DNA of 64,000 nt from Blasia pusilla (lineage: Eukaryota). A program made the position numbers and the translations under genes. Of the stretch, positions 5,100-27,698 are shown in pieces. A model generated the notes under the pieces. That model did not search any database. It saw nothing but the letters and a program-made list of their open reading frames with translations, and was not told where the DNA came from. The DNA lies in contig CM114271.1 of the NCBI GenBank assembly GCA_050084515.1, forward strand, positions 25,420,001 to 25,484,000, read 5' to 3'. Numbering within the stretch: the stretch's first letter is position 1; the number at the start of each line of letters is the position of its first letter.

Positions 5100-6722
5100 C
5101 TACTTTAGTGTTCCTTACTTCTCCCTCCCGACTTTGGAATCCAATGTAAGTCTTCCGCCTGCAAAGCTCAAGGTTGAATTTTCTTCAGGTTGAAGCTAAG
5201 TAAATTAGTTTGTAAACTCTTGAGAAATTCTTTCTAAATTACCCAAGGTCCTAAATCCATGATTGGCAATGGCTGCAACTGTGGAGTTTGAGCATTGAAT
5301 GATGTCCGGACCCAATCACACACCATGCACCTAGCAACAAACTACTGAACATAAGTTTGCATGCCTTGCCACCAATACTATATCTTGAGCAAGGTGTATT
5401 TTCGCTTCATTCCAAAATGATCCATTTCCTCGTGAGCATTCAATACCAAATGTGCTCTCTACAAAAGGATGAGGCACTACATGTTCTCTACCATCCTCCC
5501 AAATTCACTACACATGAATCCCCTCCCACCAAAACTGTCTCGCTTGCTGTAGGATCCGATCCCCCTCTCTAGCATCTACTGTGCTCATAAGGCTGCTAAT
5601 GCACAAGTACTCCAAGACTATTTCATCCTCCTGAATATCTCAACCATCTATCACCTTCTTACCGACCTCTAGATCTACCAACTCTCCATGAGATCTCTCC
5701 ATCAAAGTCTCAACAATCTGGCTCTCCATAACCAACAAGCCCAAATAGACCGACGTGTGCCATCTTGGTTGAGCATCCAAAGTCTATGTACCACTTGGAA
5801 ATCATACTCTTGCAACAATAAAGCCCACTTTGCAAGCTTTACTATAAGCTTTTTGGACTCCATCAACCATTTAAGTGTTTGATGATCAGTGACGATGGTA
5901 AAGGGATTGCCGAATAAATAACACTTGAAATACGTGACAACTCACACTGTAGCCAGACACTCACCCTCATATGAGCTATACTTCTCCCCTGCAATATTTT
6001 TAGAGCAACTAGCATAAGCCACCACAAAATCTCTACCCTCATCTTCATATTGGGTGACCACCGCTCCAAGTCCCAACATACTCCAATCAGTATGTAACTA
6101 GAAAGGATCCCCCTTGATCGATCTCCTTCGTATGGGCGTAGACGTCAAGTTATCTTTGAGCAATTGAAATGCTCTCTCTTCCTCATCCCCCAAGTACCAT
6201 TCGTGATCCACCTTGGTCAGCAAGGTTGATTCCTTTGCAATCAAACTAAAACCCTTGACGTACCGACGATAAAAGTTTTCCAATCCCATGAATGCATGAA
6301 TTCGACTCACATCTGTAGGATGTGGAATATGTGAGATAGCCTATACCTTCATCTATTGAATACGAAGGCCATCTGGGTATATTGGATGAATCAAGTGCTC
6401 AATTTGGTCATAGAAGAACTTGCACTTGCCTTGATGTACCTTCAGCCCATGTAACCGTGATCGTCGAAACACCTCCTCTTGATGTCGCTCATGCTCCTAA
6501 ACCGTGGTGCTAAAGAGTGCCATGTCATGAATATATCACCTAGCAAAATCCAAACCGTCAAAATCCTTTCCATGAGCCTCTGAAACTTTTTTCGGGTGTT
6601 CTTTAACCTAAATGCTAAGAACCGCCACTAGTACAAACAATCCTTGCCGTGAGGATTGATGCCCCAAAATGACGTTTTCTGCCTTTCTCCAATCTGATAG
6701 GCACTTACTTGATAGTATCAAG
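5100..6722 (-). pseudogene. Degenerate Ty3/gypsy pol (RT-RNase H-integrase), close relative of the 22629-27406 element; split by copia A, last piece at ~11998-12020
   Basis: SRIHAFMGLENFYRRYVKGFSLIAK...EERAFQLLKDNLTSTPI parallels SRVRAFLGLANFYRRYVKGFSAIEK...QERAFQKLKEKLTSSPI in ORF 24903-25487. The LDLxxGYxQ RT motif is rejoined when copia A is removed. Left limit approximate. Confidence 0.8.
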
Positions 6723-7032
6723 TATTGAAGATTGAGTTACATTCAAACTCATGAAACACTTGAATTGCTACATTTGGTACTCACACAAAGTAGGAAAGGT
6801 TAATCTTGGTTAGTCACTTAAGCGCGATTATCTTAAATAGGATTAATTAATCACAGTTAATCTAACTCGAGACTGGTTAAGGTTAGGCTTAGGGTTGCTT
6901 TTACATACTTTATATAATTGAGAAGGGGATTAGCCTCCTCTCATTCTCTCATTGCAAATTTTGTTGTACATGGTGATGTGTGAGTGTGAGAGCCGTTTCC
7001 TACCAATTATGCTTCTTTAGCAGTTTTTCACA
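6723..7032 (+). repeat. copia A 5' LTR (TA...CA)
   Basis: Direct repeat of 11686-11997; followed by the PBS. Confidence 0.9.
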
Positions 7033-10000
7033 TAATATCAGAGCGATAAGAGAACATCATTTGAAATTCTTGGTGTTTGAGGAGAGAAGAGAAGCAAGAG
7101 AAGGCACAATTTTAGTTTGGGAGAAGGAAATTTCATTCAAAGCTCAGTGGATGCACATTTCAGGTGGAGCCTTAACAATAAATAAGACTTTGGAGGCATT
7201 TTTTAGGGCTTTTCCGATCGATTTAGCCATCTGGATCCGCAACGGCTAGAATGATGCCAAAGTCTGGTACCAATTATCTTGTAGAGCTTGTCGAGAGTTT
7301 TCCAACACATCCAAAATTTCTCAATTTTGATATTTTAAGCTCTTGCAGTAGCAATTTTAGTGTAAGAAAATACAATAAGTGAAGAAAAATTGTACAGTTT
7401 GCTCTCTACACGGCATTCGACTAGTTCATATAGTGGAAAATTTCAAGTCAATTTCTATGTAGGAGTGGTCTATGCTTCAATTAGAGTAGAGGAGAGCTTG
7501 AAATTATGTTTTTGTAAGTGAAATCGTTCGTCATGGAGTATTCCTCAACAACAATCATAGACGAAGCTAGATAAGAAAAATTTTAATGTCTAGAAGTTTC
7601 GCATGAAATAACTTCTCATGTGTCAAGAACTATGGGAGCTTGTCACAGGTGATAAGGGCAAACAAGAAGTCTCTGACTCAACAGACTTGAATGTTCACGC
7701 TTGAAACAAACGCGCGAGGCAAGTAATCCACTATATTTCAATAACAATCAATTTGCCAATGACAAGTCACGTTCAAGATGTTGATACTCCAAAGAAGGCC
7801 TCGGATGCATTGGAAAAGTTGTTATAGGCATCTACAAAGGGCAAAATTTTCAATTGAAATAGCAATTGAACGAAGTGAGGAAAGGATTGCAGAGCATAAA
7901 TGATTATATTTTGAGTATCAAACATATTATTGATCAATTGAATAGCATTGGAGTGATAGTACAAGATGATGATCTGATTTTTTTCACTCTTCAAGGCCTT
8001 CCAAAGGATTATAAATCCTTTGAGACCTCTATATCTATGAGAGAGAAGTATCCAACCTTTCAAGAGTTAGTTCCACCGTTAATCAATGAAGAGATGCGCC
8101 TAGTAGACAACGGTAGCTCGTCTAGTGTGCAAGAGAGTACGCTATTTGCAAGTTATGGATCAAACAGAGGCAGAGATTAGGGCAAAAGCTTCCGTGGTAA
8201 TTGTGGATATCAAGCATATGGAGGAAGAGACACTCAATATAACGTCACTCAATCAACTACGAACCACTACCAGATACAATCACAAGATGATGATCGTGGA
8301 AACCGTTGGGATCGAGGTCAACAATAGAGGGTCCATGGATTGTAATTACTTTGGGATAAAGAATCACTAAGCAAAGTTTTGCTTCAAGAAGAAGATAGTT
8401 ATGAGAATAGGAGCCTCACAGCAATAAAACCATGTGGAGCAACAATACCAAGGACAATACCAAGAACAACAACATTCACAAACGGAGCATCTTTTGGTCA
8501 TGACTCATGATATGGGAGCAATGGTGAAGAAAGATTCGACAGCAAATTGGTATATTGACTGTGGTGCATCAAATCACATGACCTCACAAGCTAAATGGTT
8601 CAGTAGTTTAGATCTAGTGAAAGATCTTGCAATTGTGCTCACAAGAGATGACACTCAACATCATATCACGTATATCAATAAAGTTCCAATAGCATCAGAT
8701 GGTCTTTGTGCTCTTGGAAATATTCTTTATGTTCCTACCATTGCAAGAAACTTGATATATGTAGGATAGATAGTAGAATAGGGTTATTAAGTCAAGTTTA
8801 ACACAGATAATTATTTCATTGAAACAATCGATGACAGATTTACGATAGCCAAAGGAACTAGATATGATAGAATGTTCAAATTAGATGTTTCTATGCTTGA
8901 GATTCAAACAACAATGTATGGTCAAACTGGCCAATAAGTCACAGATCTAAATGTGTGGCATAAGAGAATTGGACATATGAATCTTCAAAGATTATAGAGT
9001 CTTTTATCATCTAATATAGTAATAGGACTTCCTAAATTAGCAATTCATATTATGTTAGAGATATATCTTCCTTGCCAATTTGGAAAACAAGCTAGATTTC
9101 CTTTTCCAAAGCAAGGCAGAAGAGCATCCAAGATATTGGAGTTGATTCACAATGATGTGAGAACAACATCACAACATAGCCTTAGTGGTTGCCAGTACTT
9201 TGTTTCATTTATTGATGACTTCTCTAGGTATATATGGGTATACTTTCTATAATCCAAGTTAGAGGTATTCTTAGTGTTCCAAATATTCAAAGTTCTAGTA
9301 GAGAAGCACACTAGAGATCACATTCTGAAATTGCGTTGTGATGGAGGAGGAGAGTATCTTTCAACACACTTTGATGACTATTTACGTCAGAATGGCATCC
9401 AACTTTAAGTAACTTGCCGTTACATTCCACAACAAAATGGAGTGGCTGAGAGGAAGAATTGACATATTGTTGAAGCAGCACGAGCTATGCTGAATGAGAA
9501 GAACATGCCTAAGGTGTATTGGGCAGAGGCTGTAGCGTGTGCAATCTTCTTAATCAACCGAACTCCAATAGCATGAGTTCTTGATAAGACTCCATTCAAA
9601 GTCTTCACAGGAATTAAACCTAATTTTTCCTTCGTGAAAGTATTTGGTTGTATTTGTTATGCTTATGTTCCTTGTAAAAGACGTCAGAAATTAGACCTCA
9701 AATATGAAAGATGTATATTCATTGGCTACGCTGATGGAACTAAGGGGTATAAGTGCTACATTCCATCTTCTCTGCAAATTATTATTAGTCACATTGTTGT
9801 CTTTCATGAACTAAAGTCATGATATGCTCCATCTAAGCCTATTCCTCCTCTAAGCTCCTCCGTTAAGGGGGAGAATATGACTATAAACCAACAGAAATTG
9901 CCTTCAAATTCCCCAAGTACTAGTATAAGATTAGGGGAGGTCCTAGATTCGTGAGTCAAACCTGTAAGTCCAAGACAAAAAGAGTACGTATTCAATCTGT

Positions 10001-11685
10001 TGACACTAGTCAGAGCTCAAGTTAGGTGTCAGAGGCATCTACAATAACTTTGTAGATCAAATAAGGTTACACATCCTATTCATAGATTCATAAATGAAGG
10101 TTTCCTTACAACACATCATGCATATATGATGACTATCCTTCAAGAATAAGAGCCGAGTTCTTTTGAAGAAGCTGCAAGTAAAGTTGAATGGATTGAAGCT
10201 ATGGTGGAAGAGCTTGCTGCATTAAGACATCAACAGACATGGGAGTTGGTTGATATACCTTCCGGTAAGGAAGAAATTGGTTGCAAATGGATTTACAAAA
10301 TCAAGCGCAATCAAGATGGTACAATTAACAGATACAAAGTGAGATTGGTGGCTAAGGGCTATGCACAACAATATGACATTGATTATAAGGAAACATTTAG
10401 CCCTCTTGCAAATATGGCAACTACGTACGAGAACAGTGGTTGCAGTTGTAGTAAGTAAGAAGTGGAGATTATATCAGATGGACGTCAAGAATGCCTTCTT
10501 GAATGGAGATCTATACAAAGAGGTATATATGACTCAAACATTTGGACATGACCATCCCAAGTTTCCATTTTGCGTATGCAGGTTGAAAGCTCTATACGGG
10601 CTCAAACAAGATTCAAGAGCTTGGTATGGCAAGATTACATGCGTCTTACAAGAGTTGGGTTTTAGGGTATGTGATTCTAACTCCTCGTTATATATCTTGA
10701 GAGGACAAGATCATACAATTATCATTGTGTTGTATGTTGAAAAACTTTTGATTACTAAGACTACTGAAAAAATGGTATAACAAGTCAAGCTAAAGTTACT
10801 AGGAAAATTTAACATGAAGGACTCGGGAGAACTCAAGTACTTCCTTGGTGTTGAATTTATCAAGATTAGAGAGAGCATGTGGTTATTACAACGATAATAT
10901 GCTCTTCAAATACTTTCAAAATATGGTATGACGACTTGTAAGCCAATCTCTACACCGTTGGACCAGAGTGTGAAGCTAAGAGTGGATGAAGGAGAGTTGC
11001 TTGCAGATTCTAATATGTACAGGCGTATGGTTGGAAGTTTGATTTATCTAACTATAACCAGGCTACATTTGAGCTATGTTGTTGGCCTCGTGAGCCAATT
11101 TATGCAAGCACCTTGAAAACCTCACCTTGATGCTACGAGGAGATTATGCGCTATGTGAAATTCTCCGTTCAATTCGGGTTTCAATTTGAACCTTCTTCAA
11201 GAACAAGGATTCATAAATGTTGATTGGGCAGGAAGCGTGTCTGATCGACACTCCACATTTAGTTATTCATTTATTTCGGGAAGCGCAGCTATAAGTTGGG
11301 CTTCAAAGAAGCAACTTACATTTGCTTTATCTTCAATAGAGGTTGAATACAAAGGAGCAACCAATGCAGCATGTGAGGCGGTGTGGCTTCATCGATTACT
11401 TGTTGAGATTGGTGTTAGTAACTTAAGACCTAGTGTAATATATCCAAACAATATTAGTAGCATCAACCTTGGTAATAACCCTATGTTTCATGCTCGTACA
11501 AAGCATGTTGAGGTGCACTATTATTTTATCAGAGAAAAAGTGCTTGCAGGAGAAATTGATCTTCTGTATATAGGTACAGATCAGCAGATTGCAGGCATCT
11601 TTAGAAAGGCATTGTCTAGAAATAAGTTTGAAATGTTTAGAAATGATTTAGGCATTAGAGATATTGATCTAAGCTTGAGGGAGAG

Positions 11686-11997
11686 TATTGAAGATTGACT
11701 TACAGTCAAGCTTATGAAACACATGAACTGCTTTATTTGGTACTCACACGAAGTAGGGAAGCTTAATCTTGGTTAGTCTGTTAAGCACGATTATCTTAAC
11801 TAGGGTTAGTTAATCACAGTCAGTCTAACTTGAGACTATGGTTGAGGTTAGGCTTAGGGTTTCTTGTAGATACCCTATATAATTGAGAAGGGGACCAGCC
11901 TCCTCTCATTCTCTTATTGCAAATTTCATTCTCCATGATGGTGTGTGAGTGTGACAGTCATTTTCCATCAATTATGCTTCTTTAGCAGTTTTCCACA
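11686..11997 (+). repeat. copia A 3' LTR (TA...CA)
   Basis: Direct repeat of 6723-7032; preceded by the PPT. Confidence 0.9.
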
Positions 11998-14775
11998 TCG
12001 GGCTCAAAGATCCAAGCATTGTAACTTTGAATCAATTAGACCATTGCATATGTAATCCCATCACCAAAAATTTCTAGTTTTGTTTGTAACATTTCGCCTA
12101 TAATCCCACCAAAAGGAATGTAATTTTTTGTACACTATGCAAAAATCCTACATCACTTTGAGTTGATTGCAACATTACACATGAGATCCCAATCCTCATA
12201 TGTTGAAATTTTCTACATCACTATGCATAATGTTCACTACATAAAAATTCTCCCAAAACAATATTACTACTTGCAACATACTCATTCGAGCATCTCTATT
12301 ACTACGCAAAATTCAACTACAGTAAATCTACTAAGAGATATTTTCACACTCTCAACCATCATGCAATCTACATACCAAAAGGAGGATTTCTTTTTATGGG
12401 TGTTCCATTCTAATTACAACCCCCACTAATAGCCCATAATTTCCGAAAGGTAACATATTTGTATTCCTTCTAAACTATCAAAGTATAGATCTTCCATAGT
12501 GCTCCTTATGGGACGGGATTTGGACTTGATACTTCATCAATTCCTCCTCTTAGCATTATTATCCTTATCCATGTGTTAGTATTATTATTCTCATATATTA
12601 TTTGTTTCATATTTTCATTATAGTTTTTCATTCCTTCTCACATCCACTTTTCCTTTGCCATCCACCATTTAAAAAATTAAGTTCTAGATTAAACTACTAG
12701 TTTTCCACTATCAACCATCATACAATCTATATACTAGCTCTCGAGGATTTTATTTTTTAATGATACCATTCATATTTCTTTATTTATTTAAAATTATAAA
12801 TATTTTTTTGATTTATTACCCCTACAAACACTCCCTTCCTTTCTTCTCGAATGAAAAAAATTTTGATATTATTTTGAAATAGAAAAAAAAACATTTTCTT
12901 ATTTCTGATTGTCACATGTCAAACATAGAAATCTTAACAGATAAAACAAATAAGATATTACACGTGTAAGTACCAAAACGAACTCTTTAATATATTGCTA
13001 TTATAAGGTGCATACTTTCCCACCGATTACTTTCCGAGGGAGGCGTGAGCCAGAGTGCCCCCGCTAGCAAGCGCTGAGCCCAGTCTAGCGAACGCGATGC
13101 CCGGCATCCGGAGCTGGCGGCCCCGCAAAGTGACACGAGTCTGCGAGGGACCGCGGTCACACCGCACAGCGACTGTCCCCGAAAGCGACTGGCATCGCAA
13201 GAGAAATGGCTGTAGAATGAAAGAAGAAAATTACTCACCTCAATCTGCGGAGATAACGCGCGAAGTCCCGTGAATGCATCTGCGCAGTCTGGACAAATCG
13301 GTGGTGAGGGAGAGGTAGCGCCCCTGTCGCAGTGTAGGAGAGTGCCGGACTATTGCAGCACGCTCCTCGATCCAGCTGTGTACTTTCCTCTCCCGACTGC
13401 ATATATGCACCGGGCATCAGGTCTGGCATTGGGGATTTTTCATGTAGAAGTCGGAGAATATGCGGTGATTTGTTCCGGAGCGAGTCGTTTGAGATCGTAT
13501 TTGAGTGCGAGCGATCTGGAAAACTTCGGAGAAGAGGGCCCGTTTCCACGGGTTTAGAGGACGACTTCACGAAGGTTGAGAGTGTGGAGTGTTGAAGAGG
13601 AGTCCGAGAATTTGGTGGAAGTTACAGTAAAACGATCTTTTCAGAGGAGACGCAAAGTAGGTTCACGAGATTTTCTGTCCGCACCCGAGACCGTGTTGGA
13701 GAACCAAGGAGCTTCCGCAAATTGCGAGCGAGTTCCAAGTGAAGGTAAGGTGTGTGGATTTCCTGTGATTGCTTCCGTTGTCTCCTTTTGGGACTCTTTG
13801 ACTGGGGATTTAGCCCGCTCCGTCGATGTGTCTGGCGCTTTTCACCAGCTCTCATAACAACTGACGAGTAAATGTGTCATTCGGCACAACATCTATGGCT
13901 CGAAACGTTTTGATCCTGTAGATCTTCTTAGCTTGTCGAGCTTGTTGGCCTGTCCGATCGACTATCTGTAAGCGTAAGATCAGGTCAAACCCGAATCATC
14001 ACGGTTTTATCATCACACTAGCTAGCATATGCACATCCATTTTCCTTCTACGGTACCATTGTCGGTTGTGATCACATGGACTTCGAATCAACGGTGGAAT
14101 CAGGAACCGTGGATCGGCTGTGGTAGTTGATCCCGTTGTACAGGATCGAGAGTCTTGAGAATTGGCCCATTTTTTGAAACTGGTTTCAAGCAAATTAACG
14201 AAACACAGAACTTTTGAGTAACCTTCGTTCTAGGAAATTGGTTAGCGTGTATAGGATCAGCCAGGGTTTGTCAGATTATTTTTTGTTCTCAACCTTTGTC
14301 AACAATCCAGAGGGAGATTTCGATGTCTCTCCAAAGAGCTATGGCGAGATGCCTCAAGGTGTTGTCGCGTTTCCACCACCAGTGAGCTATCCACTTAGTT
14401 TTCCAACCATTATTGCCGGACAGTCGATGTGACCGATGGCATAGGGATGGCGCTGGCACAATTTTCGATCTGCCATTATTTAATTGCACACTGGCGTGGC
14501 TAAAAACTTACCCAAGCACGAATTCAATCCTTCGCGGCAAGAACTCAATTGCATGGTCTTCAATTCATCCTCTTTTTCTACCTAGGGCATGGATGGTCCA
14601 TGTTCGAGAGAGAGCTCGCCGTGTGTGTCTTTCATGTGTGTGCCTTGACTATGCTCCGGGTTAAAAATTCCACCCTTAAAAAAAAACAAAAACCAAATCT
14701 TTTCAGGTGATGTGCGATGCCTGTCAGATGCGATGCCAATTTCACACATGTGGAAGGGGTCCCATTAGCCAGATC

Positions 14776-14913
14776 GGCTTCCCGTGAACTAAAAATCTAC
14801 TGTACTCTCTCCAAGCACAGTCCAACCAGGGTGCGGGGTCTATGGCTTCCCGTGGACTAAAAATCTACTGTACTCTCTCCAAGCACAGTCCAACCAGGGT
14901 GCGGGGTCTATGG
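14776..14913. repeat. Tandem duplication, 2 x 68 bp
   Basis: GGCTTCCCGTG(A/G)ACTAAAAATCTACTGTACTCTCTCCAAGCACAGTCCAACCAGGGTGCGGGGTCTAT occurs twice with one mismatch. Confidence 0.95.
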
Positions 14914-17309
14914 TCGCAAGGCTACGACAGGCACTACTTAATGAGTACAGTCTCTCTCTCTCATACCTGAATTTGTCCAGTTCGTCTCCTCCTTCGAGTT
15001 CTTCATTAGTTTGCTGAAAGAGGGCGTCGTCGTATAGAGTGAAGGATTTTCTGAAATGAAGTCATGTGTCTAGGTTCTTAGGCGTGTTATTTCCAGGTCG
15101 AATATTTTTATCTTTCATGATGAATTTGATCTCTCAATACTAATTTGAACATGCGTCGGCCATTCCGTTCGACATGCCTTCAAGTTGTAGTAAGTCTCGA
15201 TTTGGCTTCAGGTAGATATGAAATCCCTAGAGCTTCTATGTTTTCCAGTGGCTATCAGAGATGATGTGTGGAAGCGTCTGCATCCAAAACAGACTCCGTA
15301 GTACGAGCCTTGTTCGTTCTCTGACGAACTTACCTCGGAAGTGAGACGCTGCGAACTTTTCTGAGGTTATCAATGGTAGTAATCTGATAAAACCCGATCA
15401 AGCTTATGAATCTTTGTTTTGATGCTTGGATGGGTCGGGTTAGCTTAACTTCACTGCAGTTCTAGGGCTGGGTAATCCCGCTTTCAACCTCGAGCTCCAC
15501 TTCAATTTCCCCAATTTTATAGCCAGTTGGCAAGTTACGTCGAGTAGAGATTTTGCAGATGTCGATAGCTGAAAACGTTGATCAATATTTTATCTTAAGA
15601 GTGTCCAAATTCTTGCAATAGGTTTGAGGTATCCATAGGTTATTGGTAACTACAATTCGTGTTACAGTACTTCCAGATCTAGCTTCTCTTCGCCAATATC
15701 CTCATGAATGTCTCCTCTTTTTTCCCAGATGAATGAAGCACGAATCCTACTGCCTGTGAGAATTGAGGGATTTGCTCTGCTGGGATTAAACCCGGGTTCC
15801 CTGTCAATCAATACGGAAACTGCGGAGAGAAATTGATCTTAGAGGTTTAGAGAAATTCACCTGTTCGAAGGGAGCATCTAAATAGTGACATTCTAACAGT
15901 AGACCTCTCAAAAAATGGGCAGAGACATCTAAATATTGGCAAAGTAAGAATCATCGGCATGTTACGACAATTCATAGCACAGCTTCCGCAAAGGAACCAA
16001 TAGTTTTCACACTACCTAATATGGTATTGTGGGTGGTCGAGAAGGCTTCCAAATGTCACGGATAGGAAGCATGAGCATGTTTTCTGCAGTCTTGAGTTAT
16101 GTGGGACCCTAAACTTCTGGTTACATATGTGAAATTTCGTAGAACCTTATTCTCCAATTTTTTAGGGTCTTTTCTAGAATAGAATAAACTGTCTCGTCCC
16201 CTTGCGTGACACATGGTGATAAGCGAGGAAAGTATCAGATCCTTGCGAGAATTTATCCTATCCTTACAGTTGCAATTGACTCAAATGATCTCGTAGCGGA
16301 TTTGAGTTCAGCGAGTGATGACTGTAATTGCGTCAGGTCCGAAAGATCCTCACTTAATAGGAGTCTAGCAAACAATACATAAGCTTCCGATATGGGCTTT
16401 TCGAGCTCAGCCAGATCTGCTGATACTAAGAAAGCTTCGGTAGCCGATCAAAAGATTTGGGGAGTCTTATCGTGCAACCGTTGTGTTTGTCCTAGTGCAG
16501 TCACTCCGAGAATGCAGCTTCTCCTGTTGCAAGCGGTCCTCTTGTTTATCTGCGGGACATGGTTGACCACTAAGGGCACATTTTCGAACTGATTTGCAAG
16601 GTAGACATCTTCACCTGTTCAGCTTCAGATCGTCCAGCTGCCACGAAGGGCCCTTAGCACCAACTGCAAGATGGCACTAAAATTGCTGCACTCTTGCTTT
16701 GATGATGTTACACCGAAAAAAGAGTAGCAGTCTAGGTTTTGGGGTTTTCCTCCAGCTTTCTCTGCAGATTTGTGTGGACAGAGACGCTCTCTTTATAATC
16801 TCCATGGGTGGTTCTGGTGGGAGGATCGTTGTAGGGACTTCTGCATCTTTGTTTACTGCTACTTGAAGAACCGCGCCTGACCTTATTATAACGAAAAAAT
16901 CAACTTACTGAACTGTCAATTCTGAATTGGTTAGAGAATTGAACATGGGATGGTGAGACCTTCAGTAATCTTTGAACTGCAAGCACTGGTCACCTTCGAA
17001 TGAAGATGACTGTGAACTGATCTTCTTGTAGTATACTGCATAAACCCAGATCTACAACCGTGTACATTAAACTACGAGTGACTGGGATCACTAGTCGATT
17101 TTTCCTGAAGTCCTGTTTTCAAGTATGTGTAATCGCAGTACTCATCATGCAATCTGGTGTAAACCATCGTCATGTCATCGATTTGCCAAAATCTGACATG
17201 CAGATTCTGCTTCAAGTGCTCTGTGAAGCACGCTAGGTGCTTTGGGACGGGCAGGCGATCGTATATGTGACTTTTGGAAGATGCATCGCAGGTGATTGTA
17301 GGCTTGGAG

Positions 17310-18707
17310 ATGCACGCAGGAGAAGCAGTCATGGCTCGGAAGTTGCCACACTTGATCATGCGAGGGGGAACTTCGCGAGGGGTCTATATCCTGAAAGAGC
17401 ACCTGCCCATGCAGGACGACAACATCAGCAAAGTGCTGCTCGCTGCCATGGGGACTGTGTATGCGCATCCGGGGGAACACTTCCAACTCGACAGAGATAG
17501 GAAAGTCGGTGGCGGTTGCCAAGTGAATGGACTGGGCGGCGGAACTTCCATCACGAACAAGGTCGCCATTCTGTCCAGATCCGCATATAAGGGCGTGGAC
17601 GTGGACTACCGCTTCGCCCAGGTCAGCACTTCCAAAGCTTACGTAGACTTCGAGCCCAGCTGTGGCAACATTCTCGCCGGTGTGGGTCCCGCGGCGATCG
17701 AAATGGGCCTGGTGAGCAAACTGGGCAGGGAGGTCACCAAGGTGGTGATCCGAGCGACGAATAATGGCACCCTGGTGGAGGCCGTGGTGAGGACTCCCCA
17801 GCAGAAGCTGGCATACGACATAATAACGAGCGACCAGGTGGACGGCGACGGGGCACTCCGACATCAACCCGCTCCGGTGCTGCTGAATTTCATGGACGTG
17901 GTGGGATCCACGAGTGGAGGCCGGCTCCTGCCGACGAACAACGTCGTCGACGTCATCGACGGTGTGGAGGTCACCTGCATCGACGTGGCGATTCCCATGG
18001 TCATCGCCAGGGCGTCGTCCATGGGCAAGACCGGCTACGAGTGCAAGCAGGAGTATGACCATGACTGTCACTTCTTCGCGCGTCTGGAAGCCATTCGCCG
18101 GAAAGCTGGACTGCTCATGGGGCTGGGCGACGTCGCGGGTCGGGTTCTCCCCAAGTTTGGCCTCGTCGCGGAGCCCCGGTCTCCTGGCGCCAGCTTCACG
18201 GCGCGCTACTTCGTCCCCGATTCGTGCCACCCCGCGATGGCTGTCACCGGAGCCATCTGCATGAGCAGCTGCAGCATCCTCAAGGACTCGGTGGCGTACG
18301 ACCTCGCCCGGCGCTCGTCCGTGCCGGTCGATTCCTGCTGCCATCCCGGACTCACTCATGACGAGGTGGTCATCGAGCACCCGTCTGGATCCATCAAGGT
18401 CTTGCTCAAGTCTTTGCAGAAACCCGACACGCGGGAGATGCACGTGGTCAGCGCCGGGATCGAGAGAACTGCGCGTTGGATATCTGCAGGGGTCGCGTTC
18501 GTTCCGGATCATTGGGAGCGTGAGGAGCCGAGGGTGGACATCCACGCAACGATTTTAATGAGCACCGAAACAGTCATTCCTGAGGAGAAGGTGAACTACG
18601 AAATGAACGGGTGCGAAACCTCCAAAGCCGAAAGCTTGAGAAAGGAGATCGACTCCCAATTCCAACAATTCAGGCATATTTTCTCTTACGGTAGTAAAGT
18701 AGAGTAG
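17310..18707 (+). CDS. PrpF-family isomerase (4-oxalomesaconate tautomerase GalD/LigU-like, diaminopimelate-epimerase fold), single coding exon
   Basis: Uninterrupted ORF (first in-frame ATG 17310, alternative 17331) with family motifs MRGGTSRG, GLGGGTSITNKVAI, DVDYRFAQV, SCGNILAGVGPAAIE, PKFGLV, CHPAMAVTGA, IEHPSG and RTAR. Strong G/C bias at third codon positions. Confidence 0.9.
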   Translation: MHAGEAVMARKLPHLIMRGGTSRGVYILKEHLPMQDDNISKVLLAAMGTVYAHPGEHFQLDRDRKVGGGCQVNGLGGGTSITNKVAILSRSAYKGVDVDYRFAQVSTSKAYVDFEPSCGNILAGVGPAAIEMGLVSKLGREVTKVVIRATNNGTLVEAVVRTPQQKLAYDIITSDQVDGDGALRHQPAPVLLNFMDVVGSTSGGRLLPTNNVVDVIDGVEVTCIDVAIPMVIARASSMGKTGYECKQEYDHDCHFFARLEAIRRKAGLLMGLGDVAGRVLPKFGLVAEPRSPGASFTARYFVPDSCHPAMAVTGAICMSSCSILKDSVAYDLARRSSVPVDSCCHPGLTHDEVVIEHPSGSIKVLLKSLQKPDTREMHVVSAGIERTARWISAGVAFVPDHWEREEPRVDIHATILMSTETVIPEEKVNYEMNGCETSKAESLRKEIDSQFQQFRHIFSYGSKVE

Positions 18708-21700
18708 ACCACTCTCTTACGGGAATAGGTGTCATCCCTCTCTTACGGAAATAAGTGCCCTTACCCGCCTCTAGCCGACCGGGCAAACTCGCAGCGTCTA
18801 TACGACATACTCTCGTGATTGATGACTTTCTTAGTTAGTCCCGATACTCTCTCCGACCCACGTATCAAATACATATGTAGTGAAATGGTCTAAGGATCGG
18901 CCTAAGTATGTTTCCACACCAGATTCGTAGACTAAACTGGCCTCCAAACCTTTCCGAGGGCCCTTTGCTGGCGCGCTGTTGATGTACTTTTGCGATGTGC
19001 ATTCGTTGGTGATCCCGTGGCTATATGAGACTAGTAGAGGTCCTACGTGGAGCACGGAGTCAATAGCTCTGGTGCTCGGGAAACATTTTCTTATTGCCCT
19101 ACATTTGCAAAAGGACTCTTTGCAAACTAGAAAACTATCCTCCGATCCCTTTTAGCTTTGTTCGAGCATGGGTGTATTTCATCTCCCCTTCGAGGCTTAA
19201 AGTCGAATTAGTAAAGTTTAAAATAGAAGTAGAAAGGACCTCTGCCCCGGAAGTCTCTTTTAACCTGATGTTCATTACTATTTCTTTCTTTTAATTCTTG
19301 GCACTTCAGCTACTCCACAGCACAAGTGTCAACACGTCAAAGTTTTTTCCCCACCATGCATTGATTCCAAAAGTGTTTTAGGGACGATGGAGTGGTTAAT
19401 TAAGCGGTTTTTCGTTAACCCAAATCTTATCTGTGGAAGGTAACCCAAACAGCGCGCTGTACCCCAAACATTAGTCAATCAACACAAGGAACAAACATCA
19501 AACCCTTTGAGAGTGTCGTAGTGTTTGAAGGGAAGAGATGATTCGTCGGAGAAGAAGATGGGTAGATGTTAAGAATTTTACTTGTAACTATTTCCATTGT
19601 GATCCAATCTTTTCAATGTTAGGCCGAACGTGTTCATCTTTTCAAGCTTGAACTTTGGGGTTTTTTTTTTTACTTAAGATGGAGTTTTCCAAAGTTCTAG
19701 GGATTTTTGGACCTCCTTCTCTCCTAAACGACCTCATTGATTCTTAAACGCAATTTCACACATAGCGCTTTTCTTATAAAGTGATATCGGGTTACCATCG
19801 GTTTAAGGTATTCCTCTTGCTTTTCTCGATCTTTTGATACGGGCTAGGCTCAGCATTACGAACTCATTCCCTCATAGCAGTCATCAGTGGGTGGTTCACT
19901 TTCTCCTCACATCCTCTTTTTTGGTGTTTCCAATCTCTTTCATAACTTTCTTCTGGAATGTCGGTTTTGGACGTGTTTGGTCTTGTTTCGATTGTCTCAT
20001 GAGCTCGTTCTTATCATACCAAGTAGGTTTTCTAGTTTTTCTTTCTTATCCGTAAGCGCTTTTTATGGTATACGAGTTTGTTTTAGGTCAATTCCTCTCA
20101 AACTTCTTCCTTGCTCTTTCAACTCTTTACTTTACTATTTCCCCCCTACATGCATTTGCTATCTCCTTAGGACATTAGAAATTCATATTTTGATCCACTT
20201 CTTCCGATACCATATATATCACTGTTCCTTTTCAAAAAAAAATATACTTCTTAAAGTAATTTTCAATAATAAGTTCGTTATTTCCTAATCTTAATCTCTC
20301 CATCTAAATTTCTTTTATACGGAGTCCACTACTTTTGTTTTGTTTCATGCTTACTCCAAACCGCGTTTCATATGTCTTCCCTTGTCTCTGATGACTTGCC
20401 TACCTTTGCTTCTATGGCATTAGAGATGGAGCTGGATTCTCCATCTACTTGCTTCTTTGGTTTTACACGCCCTCCTACGACCATAACCTCTCCCCCTGGT
20501 TCACCTCCTCATCGTACATCTCACCATTTTCGTCCAAATACTAATACATCCATTACACTCTCTGCATTTCTTCTAGATTCTCCTCTTCTCCCCCGTTTGT
20601 CATGTCCTAATGAGCCTAATATTGATCCATTATTACCAAATCCTACAACTTTTCCAATCCTCACATATCTCATCTATGCCCTTACTTCCAACTCCCATCT
20701 ATTCTACCCTTATCTCCCCTCTTCCTCTTCCTCTTTCCCCAACCTACTTATCCCCTCATCGTCGTCCACCATCACTTCTTGCACCTCCCACCTCCTCTCC
20801 TTATAACTCTTCTACTTCTCCATTTGTACAAAAGGTTCGTTGCATACCTTGTGGTAAGGAGTTTGCTCCTAATGGGATCAAAAGACATGAGCGGTACTAT
20901 TGATCCATGCATGAGCCTTCAATCCCTAACCCGATACCTCCTCCTACTACGATCCCCACAATAACGGCTTGGACCTGGTTAAGCCAAATTGATCTCCTTC
21001 ACTCTTTCCATCCAGGTCTCCCTCGTCCTAGGCTCTACACTCGCATTTCTATTGCTCCTCATCCCATTATCCAACAAGCTTTGATTTTTCCATTAGAAAG
21101 GTTAGTTCATGATTCCACATATATAAATGCTTGGTATCTCCTATTACTCTTCCCACAATGGGTTTTAGTCCTCCCTCCAAGGGATTGTACGACGGATCAT
21201 TGTCAAACCTCCACACGTATTCAGCACTTTATGTCTAGGGATTGGGAGAATCATCAGAATGAGCATGTACTTCGAGCAGAGGCCTTAGCTGGGGCTCATC
21301 CCACTCAAAATGCTAATCATGGAGGCCTTCAATACAACAACGCCTTTAACGAAGTCTACTTTTGGGGCATGTTGGTGAGTTTTCACATGTGGCTTGAGCA
21401 TTGGATCCTCTCTCTCTGACGGTTCCAAGTGCGAACACAGTGGCTCTCTTAGAAGCTCTTCACCCTCCTTCAAGTGGTAATGCACCACCTTTTGTGGAAG
21501 ACTATACAACGGATCTTGACTTGGAGCTTGACTTGGAGGTTTTCACAAGGGCTTTTCTTCATACTCCATGCTTATCAGCAAGCGGGCTATCAGGGATGGT
21601 TTTTTAGCATCTCCACGATTACTGTATCCCGCCAGATTCAGTAAGTGGCTTTATCTCTCTATAGAAGGTGTGTGCACATATTGCGCCTGGTCGTCTCCCA

Positions 21701-22950: not shown

Positions 22951-23810
22951 CAGTACCTTTATGTGGAGAGAGATGAGACCGCGCGGCGAGTATCATTACG
23001 TTACGTGGCGAGATTGGTCTAGAGGTATCTTGAGTTGTTGCCGATATCTGTAGTACGGGGATATCAACATACACTACCTGCCGACATCTCTTTGGTGGGG
23101 GCGCAGGATCTGGATAGAGTTTGCACCATTCATTTGGTGATTCTTGGATGGTCATGTCAGGGTCATTCATCAGCTAGCCGAGGATTTGGATTGCAGGATC
23201 CGAGGTCAGGGATGTTTTGGGAGATGCTGCGAGTAGTACGACACTTGCAGGAGAGTCAGACATGTTCTCCAACGTACATTTTGGAGAACGTGCCATTGTT
23301 GGGAGACACTCGTGCACGTGTGATGACGAGTGTGCATCAGGTGAGGTCCTGGTTGGGACCTGCTGTATTGCTAAATGCGGCGAGAGTTGGATCACGTGCC
23401 CATCGTCCACGACTGTGGTGGACAAACCTGATACCATCAGAGGTACTAAGTCGAGCATATGATGGAGTCCAAAGAGCACCACATCTCATAGTGGATGCTA
23501 TTTTGGGCTCACGGCGTCAATCTCAGGTGGTGACACGGGATGATAGACCACCGTTGGCCATGGCCAATAGGATGGGGGAGTTGAGGGCAGCCTTACCTAC
23601 GTTGGTGAGCTTCCCAAAATCCGATGCCTTTCATCAGGGAGGGCCAAGCATGATTTGGGATGAGGTGACCGGAGCATTGGAGGAGCCTACAGCAGATGAG
23701 CGCTAGTGCGCCATGGGGTTCGCTACCGGTACTACGGCGGTGCCAGGGATGACTGAGGCATCCCGGAGACAGTTGTTGGGGATGGACCTCAATTGTCTCA
23801 CATGGATAGT
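22951..23810 (+). pseudogene. C5-cytosine DNA methyltransferase catalytic domain (DNMT3-like), retrotransposon-encoded, lacking motif I
   Basis: One frame: motif II YLYVERDETARRV; III DI; IV LVILGWSCQGHS (PC->SC); V GLQDPRSGMFWE; VI YILENV; VIII NAARVGSRAHRPRLWWTNL (cf. DNMT3A DAKEVSAAHRARYFWGNL); IX/X EPTADER*CAMGFATGTT...SRRQLLGMDL (cf. DNMT3A EMERVFGFPVHYT...ARQRLLG). Two in-frame TAG stops. Confidence 0.9.
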
Positions 23811-24129
23811 TAGCCTAGGTATGGCTGAGCATAGACGGATGCGAGTGTCATCCATGCCATCACGTCCACGAGTTGGACCATTGCCTACAGGGTCTGTTCA
23901 CGCATTGGCTGGGGGCGAGACGAGGAGAGATAGGCACTCATGGACTTCCTGGGACGTCGTTCGAGCGTAGAGTGGGAAGGCGGCTAGAGTAGCACATGTT
24001 CATTTTTCGGATGTGGAGCATGGTGTAGGAGGTCAGAGTGGAGTGGCTCTTGCGGAGGTGGCTAGGGTTGCTACATAGCAACCAAAGCCGGAGGTTGTGT
24101 CCTCTCCGAGTGAGGTCACGATGGAGACT

Positions 24130-27043
24130 TGGGAGCCTGTGATAGGTCTCAAGTTGATAGGAGGAGAGCGACGGCGAGTTCATAGGTTTCTGAGAGGGCA
24201 TGTCACTTGTTTTGCCTTCAATATGAGAGACTTGGGCACGCTGAAGGGTCCCGGGATACGGATTGAGTTGGCTAGTGATACAACGATCTTTCATCGACCT
24301 TGCAGGTATTCTGATATGGAGCAAGCCTTGATTCAGAGCAGGAGTTAGGACTTGTTGGAGGCAGGACTTGTAGAGTTATCACATGGGGAGTATGCATATG
24401 CCACAGTCATGCCGGCGAAGAAGGATATGTATGGCAATTGGACGGATAGGCGGATGTGTGGAGATTACCGTCCTATCAACCGACATACGAGGTCAGATCG
24501 GTACGCCATGCCTATTCTTGAGGAGATCTTTGATGCGGTAGGGCATGCAAAGAGCTTCAGTACTTTAGATCTTCGTGTTGGCTATCATCAGCTTCCTATC
24601 AGGTTGGTGGATAGGGAGAAGACAACATTCTGGGGATAGATCAGTTCGGGAGAGATTGCTTGTATCAGTGGAGGTTCTTACCATTTGGGTTGAAGAACGC
24701 GCCTGCAGAGTTTCAGAGAGTGATGGATAGGATTCTAGCTGGCTTGGATTTTGTATGATGTTACATAGATGATATTCTTATCTTCAGTTCCATGGTTGAG
24801 GAGCATGAACGACACTTGGAAGAGGTGTTTCAGCGATTGCAATTACATGGACTGAAGTAACATCCACGCAAGTGCAGATTCTTTCAAGAGCAGATTGAGT
24901 ACTTGGGACACACCATATACCCGAGTAGGTTAGACGTTCAGCGGACGAAGGTAGAGGCTATTGCGCAGATTCCACGCCCTACAGATGTGAGTCGAGTCCG
25001 AGCATTTCTTGGACTGGCAAACTTCTATCGACGGTATGTCAAGGGTTTTAGTGCGATCGAAAAGTATTTGACCTTGTTGACGAGACTTGATCAGGTTTGG
25101 TTGTGGGGAGATGATCAAGAGCGAGCATTTCAGAAGCTCAAGGAAAAATTGACGTCCTCACCCATTTTACAGAGATCGGTTAGGGGTCGCCCATTCCAGT
25201 TACATACGGATTGGAGCATGTTGGGTCTAGGAACAGTGCTTACTCAGAGGGATGATAAGGAGAGGGAGTTCATTGTGGCTTACGCGAGCCGTTCAAACAA
25301 CATTGCAGAGGCAAAGTACAGCTCCTATGAGGGAGAATGCTTGGCTGCAGTGTGGGCCGTGGCACATTTTAGGTGCTATTTATTCGGAAACCCTTTCACA
25401 CTTATCACTGATCATCAGCCGTTGAGGTGGTTGATGGAGTCCGACAAGCTTATAGGAAAGCTTGCCAGGTGGGCTCTATTACTATAGGAGTATGAGTTTG
25501 AGGTGGTTCATAGGCCTGGTCGGCTGAACCAGGATGCAGATGGATTGAGTCGTAACCCATGTCCGAGTCAGAGAGACGACACAGGAGCTTGATGGCACGG
25601 AGAGAGTGATGAGGAGATGGTGCTCGGTTGGCATGCATCTGCCTATCTTTGTTGGTTGACTATGGCAGGTCAGCCACAGGTGATGATTCTAGTGGTGGGG
25701 TTGGATGATGAGTCTTTGGATCCAAAGGTCAGTGTGGTCGTGATATCCATGACGACGTGGAGGTTGTGGAGTTCTTGCGCACTGGCGTCATAGCGAGCAC
25801 AGTGAGTGCTAGGGAGCGGGATCGGATCCTACATAGAGCCAGAAGGTTCATGTGGGAGGGGACTCACATTTTGCGGGTATGGGGAGATGGTAGGATATGA
25901 GTGGTACCTCATCCTTCCCAGAGAGCACGTGTAGTGCGACATGCCCATGAGGAGTTGGGACATTTTGGAGTAAAGCGTACTTATAGCTTATTCCAGGTTC
26001 AGTATTGGTGGCGCGGCATGCATACTGGGGTACAGTAGTTTGTGGCCAGATGTATGGTATGTGACAGGATGCGAGCATCCTTCAATCCTCCCACTCCGCA
26101 GTTACTTCCTTTGCCGATTATGGGTTTAGGTTATCGGTGGAGTTTAGACTTTGCGGGACCTTTGCCATTGACGGGGCGTCATCATAGGTATGTTTTGGTC
26201 ATGGTGGAGCATTTCTCCAAGTGGATAGAGTTTGTGGCACTACCGGACAAGGCGAGCGAGGAAACAGCTTATGCATTTCTAGATCGTGTGCTTAGTCACT
26301 TTGGTGCACCGACGGAGGTGTTGACTGACTAGGGTACTGAGGTCAGGGGAGAGTTTTCAGGCCTTGTGTGATCAGGCGCTGATAGATCACCGCACCACGT
26401 CTAGAGATCATCCTGAGGCGGATGGGTTGGCGGAGAGAGTGGTATAGACGGTGAAGAGAGGATTGCGCAAGTATGGCTTGTGCAGGGACACTTGAGGGAG
26501 TGGGACCTACAGTTGCCATGGTTGGCTATGGGTTATCGCTTTAGTCGGCACGCATCCTTGGCGTCATTTTCACCGTACTTTTTGCTCTTTGGGAGAGAGC
26601 CACATTTACCTGGAGCGATTTGACATGACATGGCAGAGGTGTTAGATCTTGATGATCCAGATGTGTGGATACAAGCATGTTCTCAGAGGGTGGAGGTTTT
26701 TCGTAGAGTTATGCCTATGGCCTTTGAGAACTTAGCTATTGCTCAGCATAGAGATACATTGAGGTACGCGACCATTCGTGGAGGAGGTTATCGTCCAAGG
26801 ATTAGGAGGTTTCATCCTGGAGATTACGTGTATTTACAGCAGGCGACACCCACGACGCTAGATCTCACTACAGGGCGCACGATCCTACGTGTGCGCGAGG
26901 TATTACCGATCAGAGTCCTCATGTTGGAGGGACGGGATGGTATGGTTTGGAAGGATCATGTGCGCAATTGTGCGCCATGTCATCTTTCGAACGTAGACGG
27001 GACGGTGGATCCGAGCTTGGCAGTGGTACCTGCAGGCTTAAGG
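24130..27043 (+). pseudogene. Ty3/gypsy pol: RT, RNase H, integrase
   Basis: RT: RMCGDYRPIN, FSTLDLRVGYHQ, LPFGLKNAPAEFQR, CYIDDILIFS. RNase H: LHTDWS, YEGECLAAVWAV, TDHQPL. Integrase: HEELGHFG...CMVC, WSLDFAGP, VEHFSKW, LTD*G. A few frameshifts and stops. Confidence 0.95.
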
Positions 27044-27192
27044 TGTATGTTGTGCGGATCTGTGAGGGGTGCAACCATCATGTTGGTATGTGATGGTTGT
27101 TCTCGAGGGTGGCATATGTCATGTCTGACCCTTCCCCCCCCCCTCTTGATGTGGTTCCCACGGGATGATGGATGTGTCCGAGATGTGTATAG
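27044..27192 (+). pseudogene. PHD finger (C4HC3) at the integrase C-terminus
   Basis: CMLC...MLVCDGCSRGWHMSCLT, then, after a slip in the poly-C run at ~27134-27144, PLDVVPTG*WMCPRCV-stop. All eight Zn ligands and the conserved W are present. Confidence 0.9.
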
Positions 27193-27698
27193 GGTAGTAG
27201 GTCATGTTAGAGAGATATGATATTTTCTATCTGGAGTTGGGAGGATCCAACTGCCAGCTAGGGGGATGGTTGTGTGATCTCCATGTATATGTATGAGTTG
27301 ATTTTTGTACATGTGTGGATCAACCTGTGTGTGGGGAAGATCAGTGTTGTGTGGTGTAGATGTGACCAGCGATATATGTTGTGTAGCGATATGTATGCGC
27401 ACGATAGTCCTTCCACTTCAAGGTTCTTATATCGGTTGGCATCTTTTGACGCTTCTATCTTGGAAAATTTTGGTCAACTTCTTGGCCCGAATAAATTTGA
27501 GGGGGAGGGTGGTATCTTGGCTTCACAACAAACTATCTTGCCTATTTCTTTTAAAGGGGTGGGACTTTCCTCCACAATCACAACTGCTCTTGTAGCCTTT
27601 TTGGAGAGTTGGACGTTGGTAGCACCGATTATGGCTTCAAGGTTTCTCCAAGGAGATACACCTATCTTGATGGATCATGTCGCCCATGTGAAGGAGGG

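What the first reader, a model, noticed from the sequence alone, without database searches (positions are those of the whole stretch)
17310..18707. Intronless bacterial-type PrpF/4-oxalomesaconate tautomerase gene in a plant-like genome: candidate horizontal transfer
Seen: an intact ~465-aa single-exon, GC-rich ORF among AT-rich plant TEs, in contrast to the 20-exon FAAH nearby. Known: PrpF/GalD/LigU enzymes act in bacterial methylcitrate and gallate/protocatechuate catabolism, with fungal homologs in itaconate biosynthesis, and are not typical of flowering plants. The conserved Lys (TNKVAI) and Cys (SCGN) appear retained. Inference: a domesticated HGT gene giving an unexpected organic-acid isomerase activity.
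Basis: partly seen in the sequence, partly recalled or inferred. Interest (0 to 1): 0.72.

Follow-up and report, generated by a model that had tools for sequence, protein, structure and literature searches.

The report
Old bacterial isomerase gene in liverwort
This is a real, spliced and expressed plant gene of bacterial type, shared by liverworts and mosses and closest to a rare cyanobacterial gene, that most likely makes an aconitate isomerase rather than the lignin-breakdown enzyme it was named after.

Summary
The 465-aa ORF is real: a single-copy PrpF-family gene with the catalytic Lys, Cys and His. It is not single-exon: stranded RNA reads splice a 5' untranslated exon across a 3,547-nt GT-AG intron, so it is a nuclear plant gene, not contamination. 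It is not a recent transfer: orthologs in Marchantia, Calypogeia and Ceratodon form one clade (100/99) that follows the liverwort/moss split. The sister clade is cyanobacterial (97/98; a proteobacterial sister is not rejected, p-AU 0.29), and the gene was found in only 4 of 401 cyanobacterial genomes, which fits an old transfer better than plastid inheritance. No named alga, hornwort or vascular plant appeared in three searches. The oxalomesaconate label is doubtful: 0 of 80 close bacterial loci carry lig/gal genes, 61 carry tricarboxylate transporters and 41 tricarballylate dehydrogenase. Best reading: a cytosolic cis/trans-aconitate isomerase, inferred, not assayed. This copy has lost a near-invariant loop. 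I found no paper on it, but could not read the main published transfer lists.

The parts
13312..13744 (+). Exon 1, untranslated (5' end taken from the X1 contig; true start site not mapped). Holds three upstream ATGs giving 50-, 1- and 2-aa uORFs; none continues into the main frame.
   Evidence: RNA depth 10-50 on the + transcript in X17/X18 and contig piece 13312-13742; uORF scan
13745..17291 (+). 3,547-nt GT..AG intron in the 5' untranslated region (donor AG|GTAAGG, acceptor CGCAG|G)
   Evidence: Joint 13742/17290 'GT..AG (cut +2)': 28 reads X17, 36 reads X18, 1 contig X1, 0 reads in DNA run X14; context
17292..19300 (+). Exon 2: last 18 nt of the 5' UTR, the whole coding sequence and a 3' UTR that fades out near 19,250-19,350
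   Evidence: Depth table and contig piece 17290-18878
17310..18707 (+). Coding sequence, 465 aa, PrpF-family isomerase (a second in-frame ATG at 17331 matches the start of the orthologs); no N-terminal targeting extension, in-frame stop 102 nt upstream in the spliced RNA
17340..18506 (+). PrpF domain (residues 11-399), diaminopimelate-epimerase-like two-domain fold; K84, C118, H307 and RGGTS kept
   Evidence: Pfam; PDB sequence matches YbhH E 2e-75, LigU 5e-61; model pLDDT 74, Foldseek best hit LigU 6P3J E 1.5e-36; motif table
17457..17516 (+). Insertion of about 17 aa after 'MGT' (residues about 50-69), at the same place as the insertion in both Marchantia orthologs
   Evidence: alignment A1; low pLDDT 50-73
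17817..17873 (+). Altered loop (residues about 170-188): 8-aa insertion and loss of the near-invariant I-x-G-V-P-G motif, peculiar to this copy among the rows compared
   Evidence: 4 of this protein's 7 departures from 77 conserved columns lie here; no indel listed in the RNA reads
18510..18704 (+). C-terminal tail ending in a predicted helix with a Q-F-x-x-[LIM]-[FY]-like motif seen in the bryophyte rows and absent from the five bacterial rows of alignment A1
   Evidence: helix 437-462

Best explanation
A PrpF-family isomerase gene passed once from a bacterium, most likely a cyanobacterium or a lineage that also gave the gene to some cyanobacteria, to the common ancestor of mosses and liverworts (or earlier, with losses), and has been inherited vertically since. 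It gained plant gene structure (here a spliced 5' UTR intron) and a C-terminal tail. Shown: ORF, family, splicing, expression, single copy, one bryophyte clade. Inferred: donor, date, and activity. The enzyme most likely uses its Lys/Cys pair for an allylic proton shift that interconverts cis- and trans-aconitate in the cytosol, either clearing trans-aconitate (an aconitase inhibitor) back into the TCA cycle or making it as a stored or defensive acid. Odds of the parts: old single origin from bacteria about 0.85; cyanobacteria as closest lineage about 0.7; aconitate or a close tricarboxylate as substrate of the family about 0.6; this particular copy still active about 0.75.
For: Orthologs: best hits are Calypogeia 56%, Marchantia paleacea 52%, M. 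polymorpha 45%, Ceratodon 48%. Tree of 41 rows: plant clade 100/99, window + Marchantia 98/97, liverwort rows 87/76, Ceratodon branch 100/99, plants + cyanobacterial clade 97/98; same groups in a 79-row mixture-model tree (100, 96, 93) and a 463-row FastTree (99, 94, 99). Separate transfers are rejected: window + cyanobacteria p-AU 0.025, window + Marchantia + cyanobacteria p-AU 0.0008. 13 alignment columns unite plants with the cyanobacterial clade against 2 that unite them with 78 other bacterial rows. Rare in cyanobacteria: 4 of 401 genomes, the centre genome included. Function: 0 of 80 GTDB loci have a lig/gal homolog within 6 kb, 61 of 80 have tctC/tctA, 41 of 80 TcuA (32 at 45% identity or more over half the length); annotated examples; E. 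coli ybhH sits beside a tricarboxylate transporter and an aconitase-like gene. Motifs D-[VCM]-[AS]-x-P and R-Y-F are shared with YbhH, the tct-linked proteins and the Bacillus thuringiensis CT-43 plasmid protein, not with LigU/GalD (D-N-G-M-P, R-[SC]-F). TbrA, TarA and Adi1 are PrpF-family aconitate isomerases (PMC11495376; PMC4720413), and Adi1's closest characterised match in that paper's table was an oxalomesaconate tautomerase. No gallate dioxygenase match and only a 26% amidohydrolase match to LigJ-type query in this genome.
Against: No assay. The tct/tcu context belongs to the next-nearest relatives; the cyanobacterial sister loci (6 of 6 examined) have an amino-acid-permease-type gene instead, and 0 of 80 loci carry an aconitase within 6 kb. 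A tree with plants joined to a marine alpha/gammaproteobacterial group is not rejected (p-AU 0.294), and the mixture-model support for plants + cyanobacteria was 93, unstarred. Plants are sister to the sampled cyanobacteria, not nested in them, a shape that plastid inheritance also gives. No tested aconitate isomerase falls inside the close clade: the B. thuringiensis protein is only 35% identical and on a long branch, and its identity with TbrA is from recall. This copy lacks a near-invariant loop, and its allele differs from the RNA-run allele by 8 non-synonymous against 1 synonymous base, unlikely under strong purifying selection (P 0.003 at omega 0.2, 0.31 at omega 1). I found no report of trans-aconitate in liverworts (listing only).
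Confidence: 0.55

Rival explanations
1. Plastid inheritance: the gene came with the cyanobacterial endosymbiont, moved to the nucleus and was lost in algae, hornworts and vascular plants.
For: Plant clade is sister to, not inside, a clade whose named members are all cyanobacteria; the Calypogeia ortholog has a long Ser/Pro/Arg-rich N-terminal extension that reads like a transit peptide (judged by eye).
Against: Only 4 of 401 cyanobacterial genomes searched carry it, and the cyanobacterial clade sits among proteobacterial sequences; no named algal hit in three searches, and none of the 44 new hits fell in the plant clade; needs many independent losses.
Confidence: 0.12
2. Same old transfer, but the substrate is not aconitate: the enzyme acts on another unsaturated acid, perhaps amino-acid-derived as the cyanobacterial permease neighbour suggests, or on a bryophyte specialised metabolite.
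For: 6 of 6 cyanobacterial loci have an amino-acid-permease-type gene and none has tct or tcuA; plant rows carry their own insertions and tail; PrpF-family members act on several substrates (PMC5690661; PMC4720413).
Against: Permease family does not fix the cargo; motifs match the tricarboxylate-linked group; aconitate isomerase activity was found in many TarA homologs of only 34-41% identity (PMC11495376).
Confidence: 0.2
3. A true 4-oxalomesaconate tautomerase in a plant gallate or protocatechuate ring-cleavage pathway.
For: NF033377 is the best NCBIfam model (358 bits); the Calypogeia and Ceratodon orthologs pass its cut-off (460 and 445 against 440); LigU is the best fold match.
Against: That model also passes E. 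coli YbhH and the tct/tcu-linked proteins, so it does not separate functions; LigU and GalD branch apart at 38-40% identity; 0 of 80 and 3 of 80 loci have lig/gal neighbours; gallate dioxygenase not found with one query, LigJ-type hydratase only at 26% in this genome.
Confidence: 0.07
4. The family is as described, but this species' copy is drifting: expressed yet under relaxed selection or already inactive.
For: Loss of the I-x-G-V-P-G loop kept in all 15 other rows compared; 8 non-synonymous against 1 synonymous base between alleles, about the rate seen in the UTRs; orthologs not found among named Physcomitrium, Sphagnum or Riccia proteins, so losses seem common.
Against: 70 of 77 conserved columns are kept, a count of departures (7) within the range of other plant rows (1-8); none of the 7 changed codons is one of those columns; no stop or indel listed in three runs; RNA depth 17-61 over the coding part from 6-12% of each run. 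Nine bases are a small sample and also fit diversifying selection.
Confidence: 0.2
5. Contaminant bacterial DNA or a recent transfer limited to this genome.
For: Intron-free, GC-rich coding sequence; the one DNA run laid had zero depth over 17420-18383, though its depth was only about 0-2 outside repeats.
Against: Spliceosomal intron removed in two RNA runs and one contig set; the stretch is held at over half its words by 6 runs of 3 studies, all labelled the same organism; position at 25.4 Mb on a long contig; nested among bryophyte orthologs.
Confidence: 0.01

Closest known systems
PrpF-family aconitate isomerases TbrA (Bacillus thuringiensis CT-43), TarA (B. velezensis), Adi1 (Ustilago maydis)
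   Same: Same family and catalytic pair; shared D-V-x-x-P and R-Y-F motifs with the CT-43 plasmid protein; Adi1 is also a cytosolic enzyme in a eukaryote (PMC4720413)
   Different: Only 35% identical to the CT-43 protein and not its sister; TarA and Adi1 were not in my trees; no partner transporter or decarboxylase seen beside the plant gene; activity untested
E. coli YbhH and the tct/tcu-linked 'NF033377' proteins of Alphaproteobacteria
   Same: 44-52% identity; best PDB sequence match 6OTV; tricarboxylate-transporter context
   Different: Function of these proteins is itself inferred from context; plant proteins add a C-terminal tail and, in this lineage, insertions
LigU / GalD 4-oxalomesaconate isomerases
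   Same: Fold (Foldseek E 1.5e-36), Lys and Cys at the K66 and C100 columns
   Different: 38-40% identity, separate branch, different motifs; pathway partners not found near close relatives or in this genome
PrpF 2-methylaconitate isomerase (AcnD pathway)
   Same: Family namesake; K73 and C107 needed for function (PMC5690661)
   Different: 131 bits against a cut-off of 441; 33% identity; prpC near 1 of 80 loci, AcnD near 0 of 80
Microbe-to-bryophyte gene transfers catalogued by Dong et al. 2025 (PMC12513842)
   Same: Same kind of event; the paper reports about 229 transferred genes per bryophyte species, with few introns and LTR-rich surroundings
   Different: That pipeline excluded cyanobacterial donors, so this gene may have been filtered out; its gene tables could not be read

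Membership tests
PrpF superfamily (PF04303) | Pfam gathering score over the whole domain | tested here: met
   258 bits against 27, model 3-371 of 371
PrpF superfamily (PF04303) | Catalytic Lys and Cys, conserved His and RGGTS motif | tested here: met
   K84, C118, H307, R18-S22
PrpF superfamily (PF04303) | Two-domain diaminopimelate-epimerase-like fold | tested here: met
   Model pLDDT 74, pTM 0.74; top Foldseek ranks are LigU, YbhH, Mii and PrpF
PrpF superfamily (PF04303) | Near-invariant [IL]-x-G-V loop | tested here: not met
   Replaced in this copy, kept in the 15 other rows; its role was not tested
4-oxalomesaconate tautomerase (LigU/GalD, NF033377) | NCBIfam cut-off 440 bits | tested here: not met
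   358 bits; two orthologs pass, one fails, and the model also passes YbhH
4-oxalomesaconate tautomerase (LigU/GalD, NF033377) | Branches with LigU/GalD and shares D-N-G-M-P and R-[SC]-F motifs | tested here: not met
   plants held with LigU, GalD and YbhH rejected, p-AU 0.032
4-oxalomesaconate tautomerase (LigU/GalD, NF033377) | lig/gal pathway partners in the neighbourhood of relatives or in the genome | tested here: not met
   0 of 80 and 3 of 80 loci; own genome, one query each; intron-split plant genes could be missed
PrpF sensu stricto (TIGR02334) | Cut-off 441 bits and prpC/acnD context | tested here: not met
   131 bits
Aconitate isomerase (EC 5.3.3.7; TbrA/TarA/Adi1 type) | cis/trans-aconitate interconversion in vitro | not testable with these tools
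   needs an assay
Aconitate isomerase (EC 5.3.3.7; TbrA/TarA/Adi1 type) | Tricarboxylate-use context in bacterial relatives | tested here: inconclusive
   tct 61 of 80, TcuA 41 of 80 in GTDB loci, but the 6 cyanobacterial sister loci have an amino-acid-permease-type gene instead
Domesticated horizontally acquired plant gene | Nuclear integration with splicing and expression | tested here: met
Domesticated horizontally acquired plant gene | Nested among bacterial sequences with support | tested here: met
   plant clade inside a bacterial radiation; fungal homologs were not knowingly sampled
Domesticated horizontally acquired plant gene | Plastid (endosymbiotic) origin excluded by absence from algae | tested here: inconclusive
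   no named algal hit, 4 of 401 cyanobacteria, but no algal genome was searched directly
Domesticated horizontally acquired plant gene | Purifying selection | tested here: inconclusive
   70 of 77 conserved columns kept but 8:1 non-synonymous to synonymous allele differences; no ortholog DNA for dN/dS

The most novel reading that the evidence does not exclude
A free-living or epiphytic cyanobacterium, long after the origin of plastids, gave the moss-liverwort ancestor an aconitate isomerase. This would be a molecularly defined plant aconitate isomerase, an activity known in plants for decades whose gene a 2016 review (PMC4945632) called unidentified, and an example of a class of transfers that published plant screens discard by rule because the donor is cyanobacterial. 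Bryophytes would then make or clear trans-aconitate by a route of their own, testable at once in Marchantia (Mp3g18680).
Probability: 0.3. Interest if true: 0.7.

Novelty: new member of a known kind. Interest (0 to 1): 0.47.

Why it matters
Bacteria-derived genes are common in bryophytes, so one more is not surprising by itself. Two points lift it. First, its closest relatives are cyanobacterial yet the gene is rare in cyanobacteria and was not seen in algae, so it may be a late cyanobacterium-to-plant transfer of the sort that at least one large screen filters out (PMC12513842). Second, it offers a concrete candidate for a plant aconitate isomerase in a model species that can be knocked out; trans-aconitate is an aconitase inhibitor and an antifeedant, and the plant gene was reported as unknown in 2016 (PMC4945632). 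It would not explain trans-aconitate in grasses, where no member of this clade was found. It also suggests that many bacterial genes labelled 4-oxalomesaconate tautomerase belong to tricarboxylate use instead.

Tried and rejected
Contamination and recent transfer: rejected. Upstream coding exon or transit peptide in this copy: none, in-frame stop 102 nt before the ATG in the spliced RNA. The 445-aa antisense ORF 17175-18512: no Pfam match and at most about 4x depth on that strand; taken as a shadow of the GC-rich gene. Paralogs: one match by protein and by family. Co-transfer of the cyanobacterial permease: only 23% and 37% partial matches elsewhere in the genome. DNA depth as a test of integration: run X14 was too thin. 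No holder run was on record as RNA; expression rests on the raw-read runs laid. DYW search as a lineage marker: 0 matches, but no positive control rang, so it is only compatible with a complex thalloid liverwort. ESM Atlas: PrpF clusters only, nothing on range. Linking the tested Pseudomonas isomerases of PMC11495376 to my tree through their primer-derived N-termini: no match among stored proteins. Literature: nine searches (listings seen) found no paper on this gene; 'PrpF'+'Marchantia' gave 2 unrelated papers; of 68 papers holding a gene id, PF04303 or 'oxalomesaconate', the 40 listed were microbial or otherwise unrelated, none with the gene ids. Supplement searches: PMC12513842 one small PDF only, its gene tables too large to read; PMC11906373 3 files, 0 hits, one scan unread; PMC11228847 1 file, 0 hits. 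Ma et al. 2022 and the tbrAB paper were not held. So 'not in print' is not established: the unread tables may list the gene. Earlier scan notes: one unrelated bacterial cluster, nothing by words or place.

Full report
Observation. The ORF at 17310-18707 (+) is as described: 465 codons without a stop, 59% GC with 74% at third positions, among Copia- and Gypsy-type remains. It matches Pfam PrpF over the whole model (E 1.6e-76), scores under the curated cut-offs of both the oxalomesaconate tautomerase model (358 of 440 bits) and the PrpF model (131 of 441), and is single-copy in a 390-Mb, 26-contig genome. K84 and C118 fall on the columns that are mutated in the LigU structures K66M and C100S; the equivalent K73 and C107 of Shewanella PrpF are needed for function (PMC5690661, passages). 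The predicted fold matches LigU, YbhH, Mii and PrpF. A multi-exon amidase gene is present on the minus strand (5 of 75 segments match); I did not count its exons.

The gene is not single-exon. In two stranded RNA runs, 28 and 36 reads join a 5' exon (about 13312-13744) to 17292 across a 3,547-nt GT..AG intron; a contig of a third run shows the same joint and the DNA run shows none. The exon is untranslated: an in-frame stop lies 102 nt before the ATG and the three upstream ATGs end early. Depth over the coding part is 17-61 on the sense strand from 6-12% of each run. Six runs of three studies, all with the same organism label, hold over half of the stretch's words (one may be the source of the assembly). 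Contamination is excluded. The DNA run was too thin to add anything and had no reads over about 960 nt of the gene.

It is an old bryophyte gene. The best database hits are Calypogeia, two Marchantia species and Ceratodon, with unnamed relatives, ahead of all bacteria. In a 41-row tree (38 of 79 rows dropped as long-branched or redundant) the plant rows form one clade (100/99); the window's protein is sister to Marchantia (98/97), with which it shares an insertion site; liverwort rows group weakly (87/76) and the Ceratodon branch strongly (100/99). The 79-row mixture-model tree and a 463-row FastTree agree. Trees that give this protein, or it and Marchantia, a separate cyanobacterial origin are rejected (p-AU 0.025 and 0.0008; the groups were named after seeing the tree). 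The host is therefore most likely a complex thalloid liverwort; a DYW search found nothing, which fits (recalled: this group lacks organellar RNA editing) but had no positive control. Seven short gene calls on the Ceratodon branch all begin at or next to one site, Ceratodon residue 142-143, which suggests that some orthologs have a coding intron there; I had no DNA to check. No named alga, hornwort, lycophyte, fern or seed plant appears in three top-120 lists, each drawn from 8,000 candidates, and none of the 44 new hits of the third fell in the plant clade. Only four plant species are named, so the range is poorly known.

Donor. The sister clade held 35 rows in the large tree; 7 are named cyanobacteria, 2 more have cyanobacterial cluster members, none is named as anything else, and the rest are unnamed. 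Three loci read in full lie among cyanobacterial-looking genes (my reading). Support for plants + this clade is 97/98, 93 unstarred and 99; 13 columns favour it against 2. However, joining plants to a marine alpha/gammaproteobacterial group is not rejected (p-AU 0.294); two other placements are rejected narrowly (0.032; 0.040). The gene was found in 4 of 401 cyanobacterial genomes, counting the centre genome, two of the four with a stop inside (completeness was not reported). A gene this rare, in a clade set among proteobacterial sequences, is a poor candidate for the plastid ancestor's dowry, so a later transfer is preferred; plastid origin with many losses stays open because algal genomes were not searched directly. 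Dong et al. 2025 excluded cyanobacterial donors from their screen (PMC12513842, passages).

Function. The database label 'oxalomesaconate tautomerase' is too wide: the model also passes E. coli YbhH and proteins beside tricarboxylate transporters. LigU and GalD from real lig/gal clusters are 38-40% identical, branch apart and differ in two motifs. Among 80 GTDB loci of close relatives (64 with 11 kb or more), 0 have lig/gal homologs, 61 have tctC/tctA (43 directly upstream), 41 have TcuA, 0 an aconitase and 1 prpC; among 80 metagenome loci the counts are 3, 48 and 21 for lig/gal, tct and TcuA. TcuA is annotated as tricarballylate dehydrogenase and yields cis-aconitate (recalled), so these clusters read as tricarboxylate use, where the isomerase would turn trans- into cis-aconitate. 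PrpF-family aconitate isomerases are established: TbrA and TarA (PMC11495376, part 1, passages, one section and supplement rows; PMC12492653 and PMC13188880, passages) and fungal Adi1, cytosolic, equilibrium 88:12 trans:cis (PMC4720413, passages). A 2016 review describes a mostly cytosolic 80-kDa plant aconitate isomerase activity and says its gene was unidentified (PMC4945632, passages). Against this: the six cyanobacterial loci examined carry an amino-acid-permease-type gene, not tct; no tested isomerase is inside the close clade; and I found no report of trans-aconitate in liverworts (listing only). The proposed mechanism, an allylic proton shift between Lys and Cys, is carried over from the family and is not shown here.

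State of this copy. It keeps 70 of 77 columns that are at least 95% conserved in 148 non-plant rows; 4 of the 7 departures are one rebuilt loop (I-x-G-V-P-G) kept by the other rows compared. Its allele differs from that of the two RNA runs at 9 coding bases, 8 non-synonymous (7 codons) and 1 synonymous; a third run adds 1 synonymous. That is unlikely under strong purifying selection (P 0.003 at omega 0.2) and unremarkable under none (P 0.31), but all 7 codons are outside the conserved columns and the sample is small. Relaxed or diversifying selection in this species is possible.

Known or new. Microbe-derived genes average about 229 per bryophyte species, so the kind is known. I found no paper on this gene in nine searches and three supplement searches, but the gene tables of PMC12513842 and the paper of Ma et al. 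2022 could not be read. Verdict: real, domesticated, old, probably of cyanobacterial kin and probably an aconitate isomerase; a new member of a known kind, interest 0.47.

Noticed in passing
window 14880-14962: Short high-copy element inside the 5' UTR intron, ending in a (TC)n run and preceded by a 2 x 68-nt tandem repeat (14776-14911). Bin depth is about 108 in the DNA run against 0-2 elsewhere and 650-730 in RNA on both strands; many loose ends run into (TC)n or (CT)n. Looks like a microsatellite-associated mobile element; one copy in the window.
   Followed up: partly
L170 (G000:C1:36050678-36051424, +): A 407-aa open frame without stops, 26% identical to a bacterial LigJ-type amidohydrolase query; possibly another intron-free gene of bacterial type.
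   Followed up: no
L171 (G000:C3:44153535-44154275, -): A 491-aa open frame with a weak (23%) match to an amino-acid permease query.
   Followed up: no
window 23023-27217: A C-5 DNA methylase-like ORF followed by RT RNase H, integrase and PHD-finger pieces on the same strand: a retroelement that may carry a methyltransferase domain. A reverse-complement relative lies near 5250-6360.
   Followed up: no
window 6721-11998: Copia-type element with matching long repeats at about 6721-7033 and 11684-11998 (86-87% alike), ending about 1.3 kb upstream of the gene's first exon.
   Followed up: partly
P0002 / P0122 (Calypogeia orthologs): About 100 extra N-terminal residues rich in Ser, Pro and Arg, like a plastid transit peptide; absent from this copy and from Marchantia.
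   Followed up: no
L002-L081 (bacterial loci): Genes labelled 4-oxalomesaconate tautomerase in this group sit with tricarboxylate transporters and tricarballylate genes, not lig/gal genes (0 of 80), which suggests the NF033377 name is over-applied.
   Followed up: yes
L002, L026, L082, L174-L176: A two-gene module (PrpF-family isomerase + amino-acid-permease-type transporter) inserted at unrelated places in a few cyanobacteria.
   Followed up: partly
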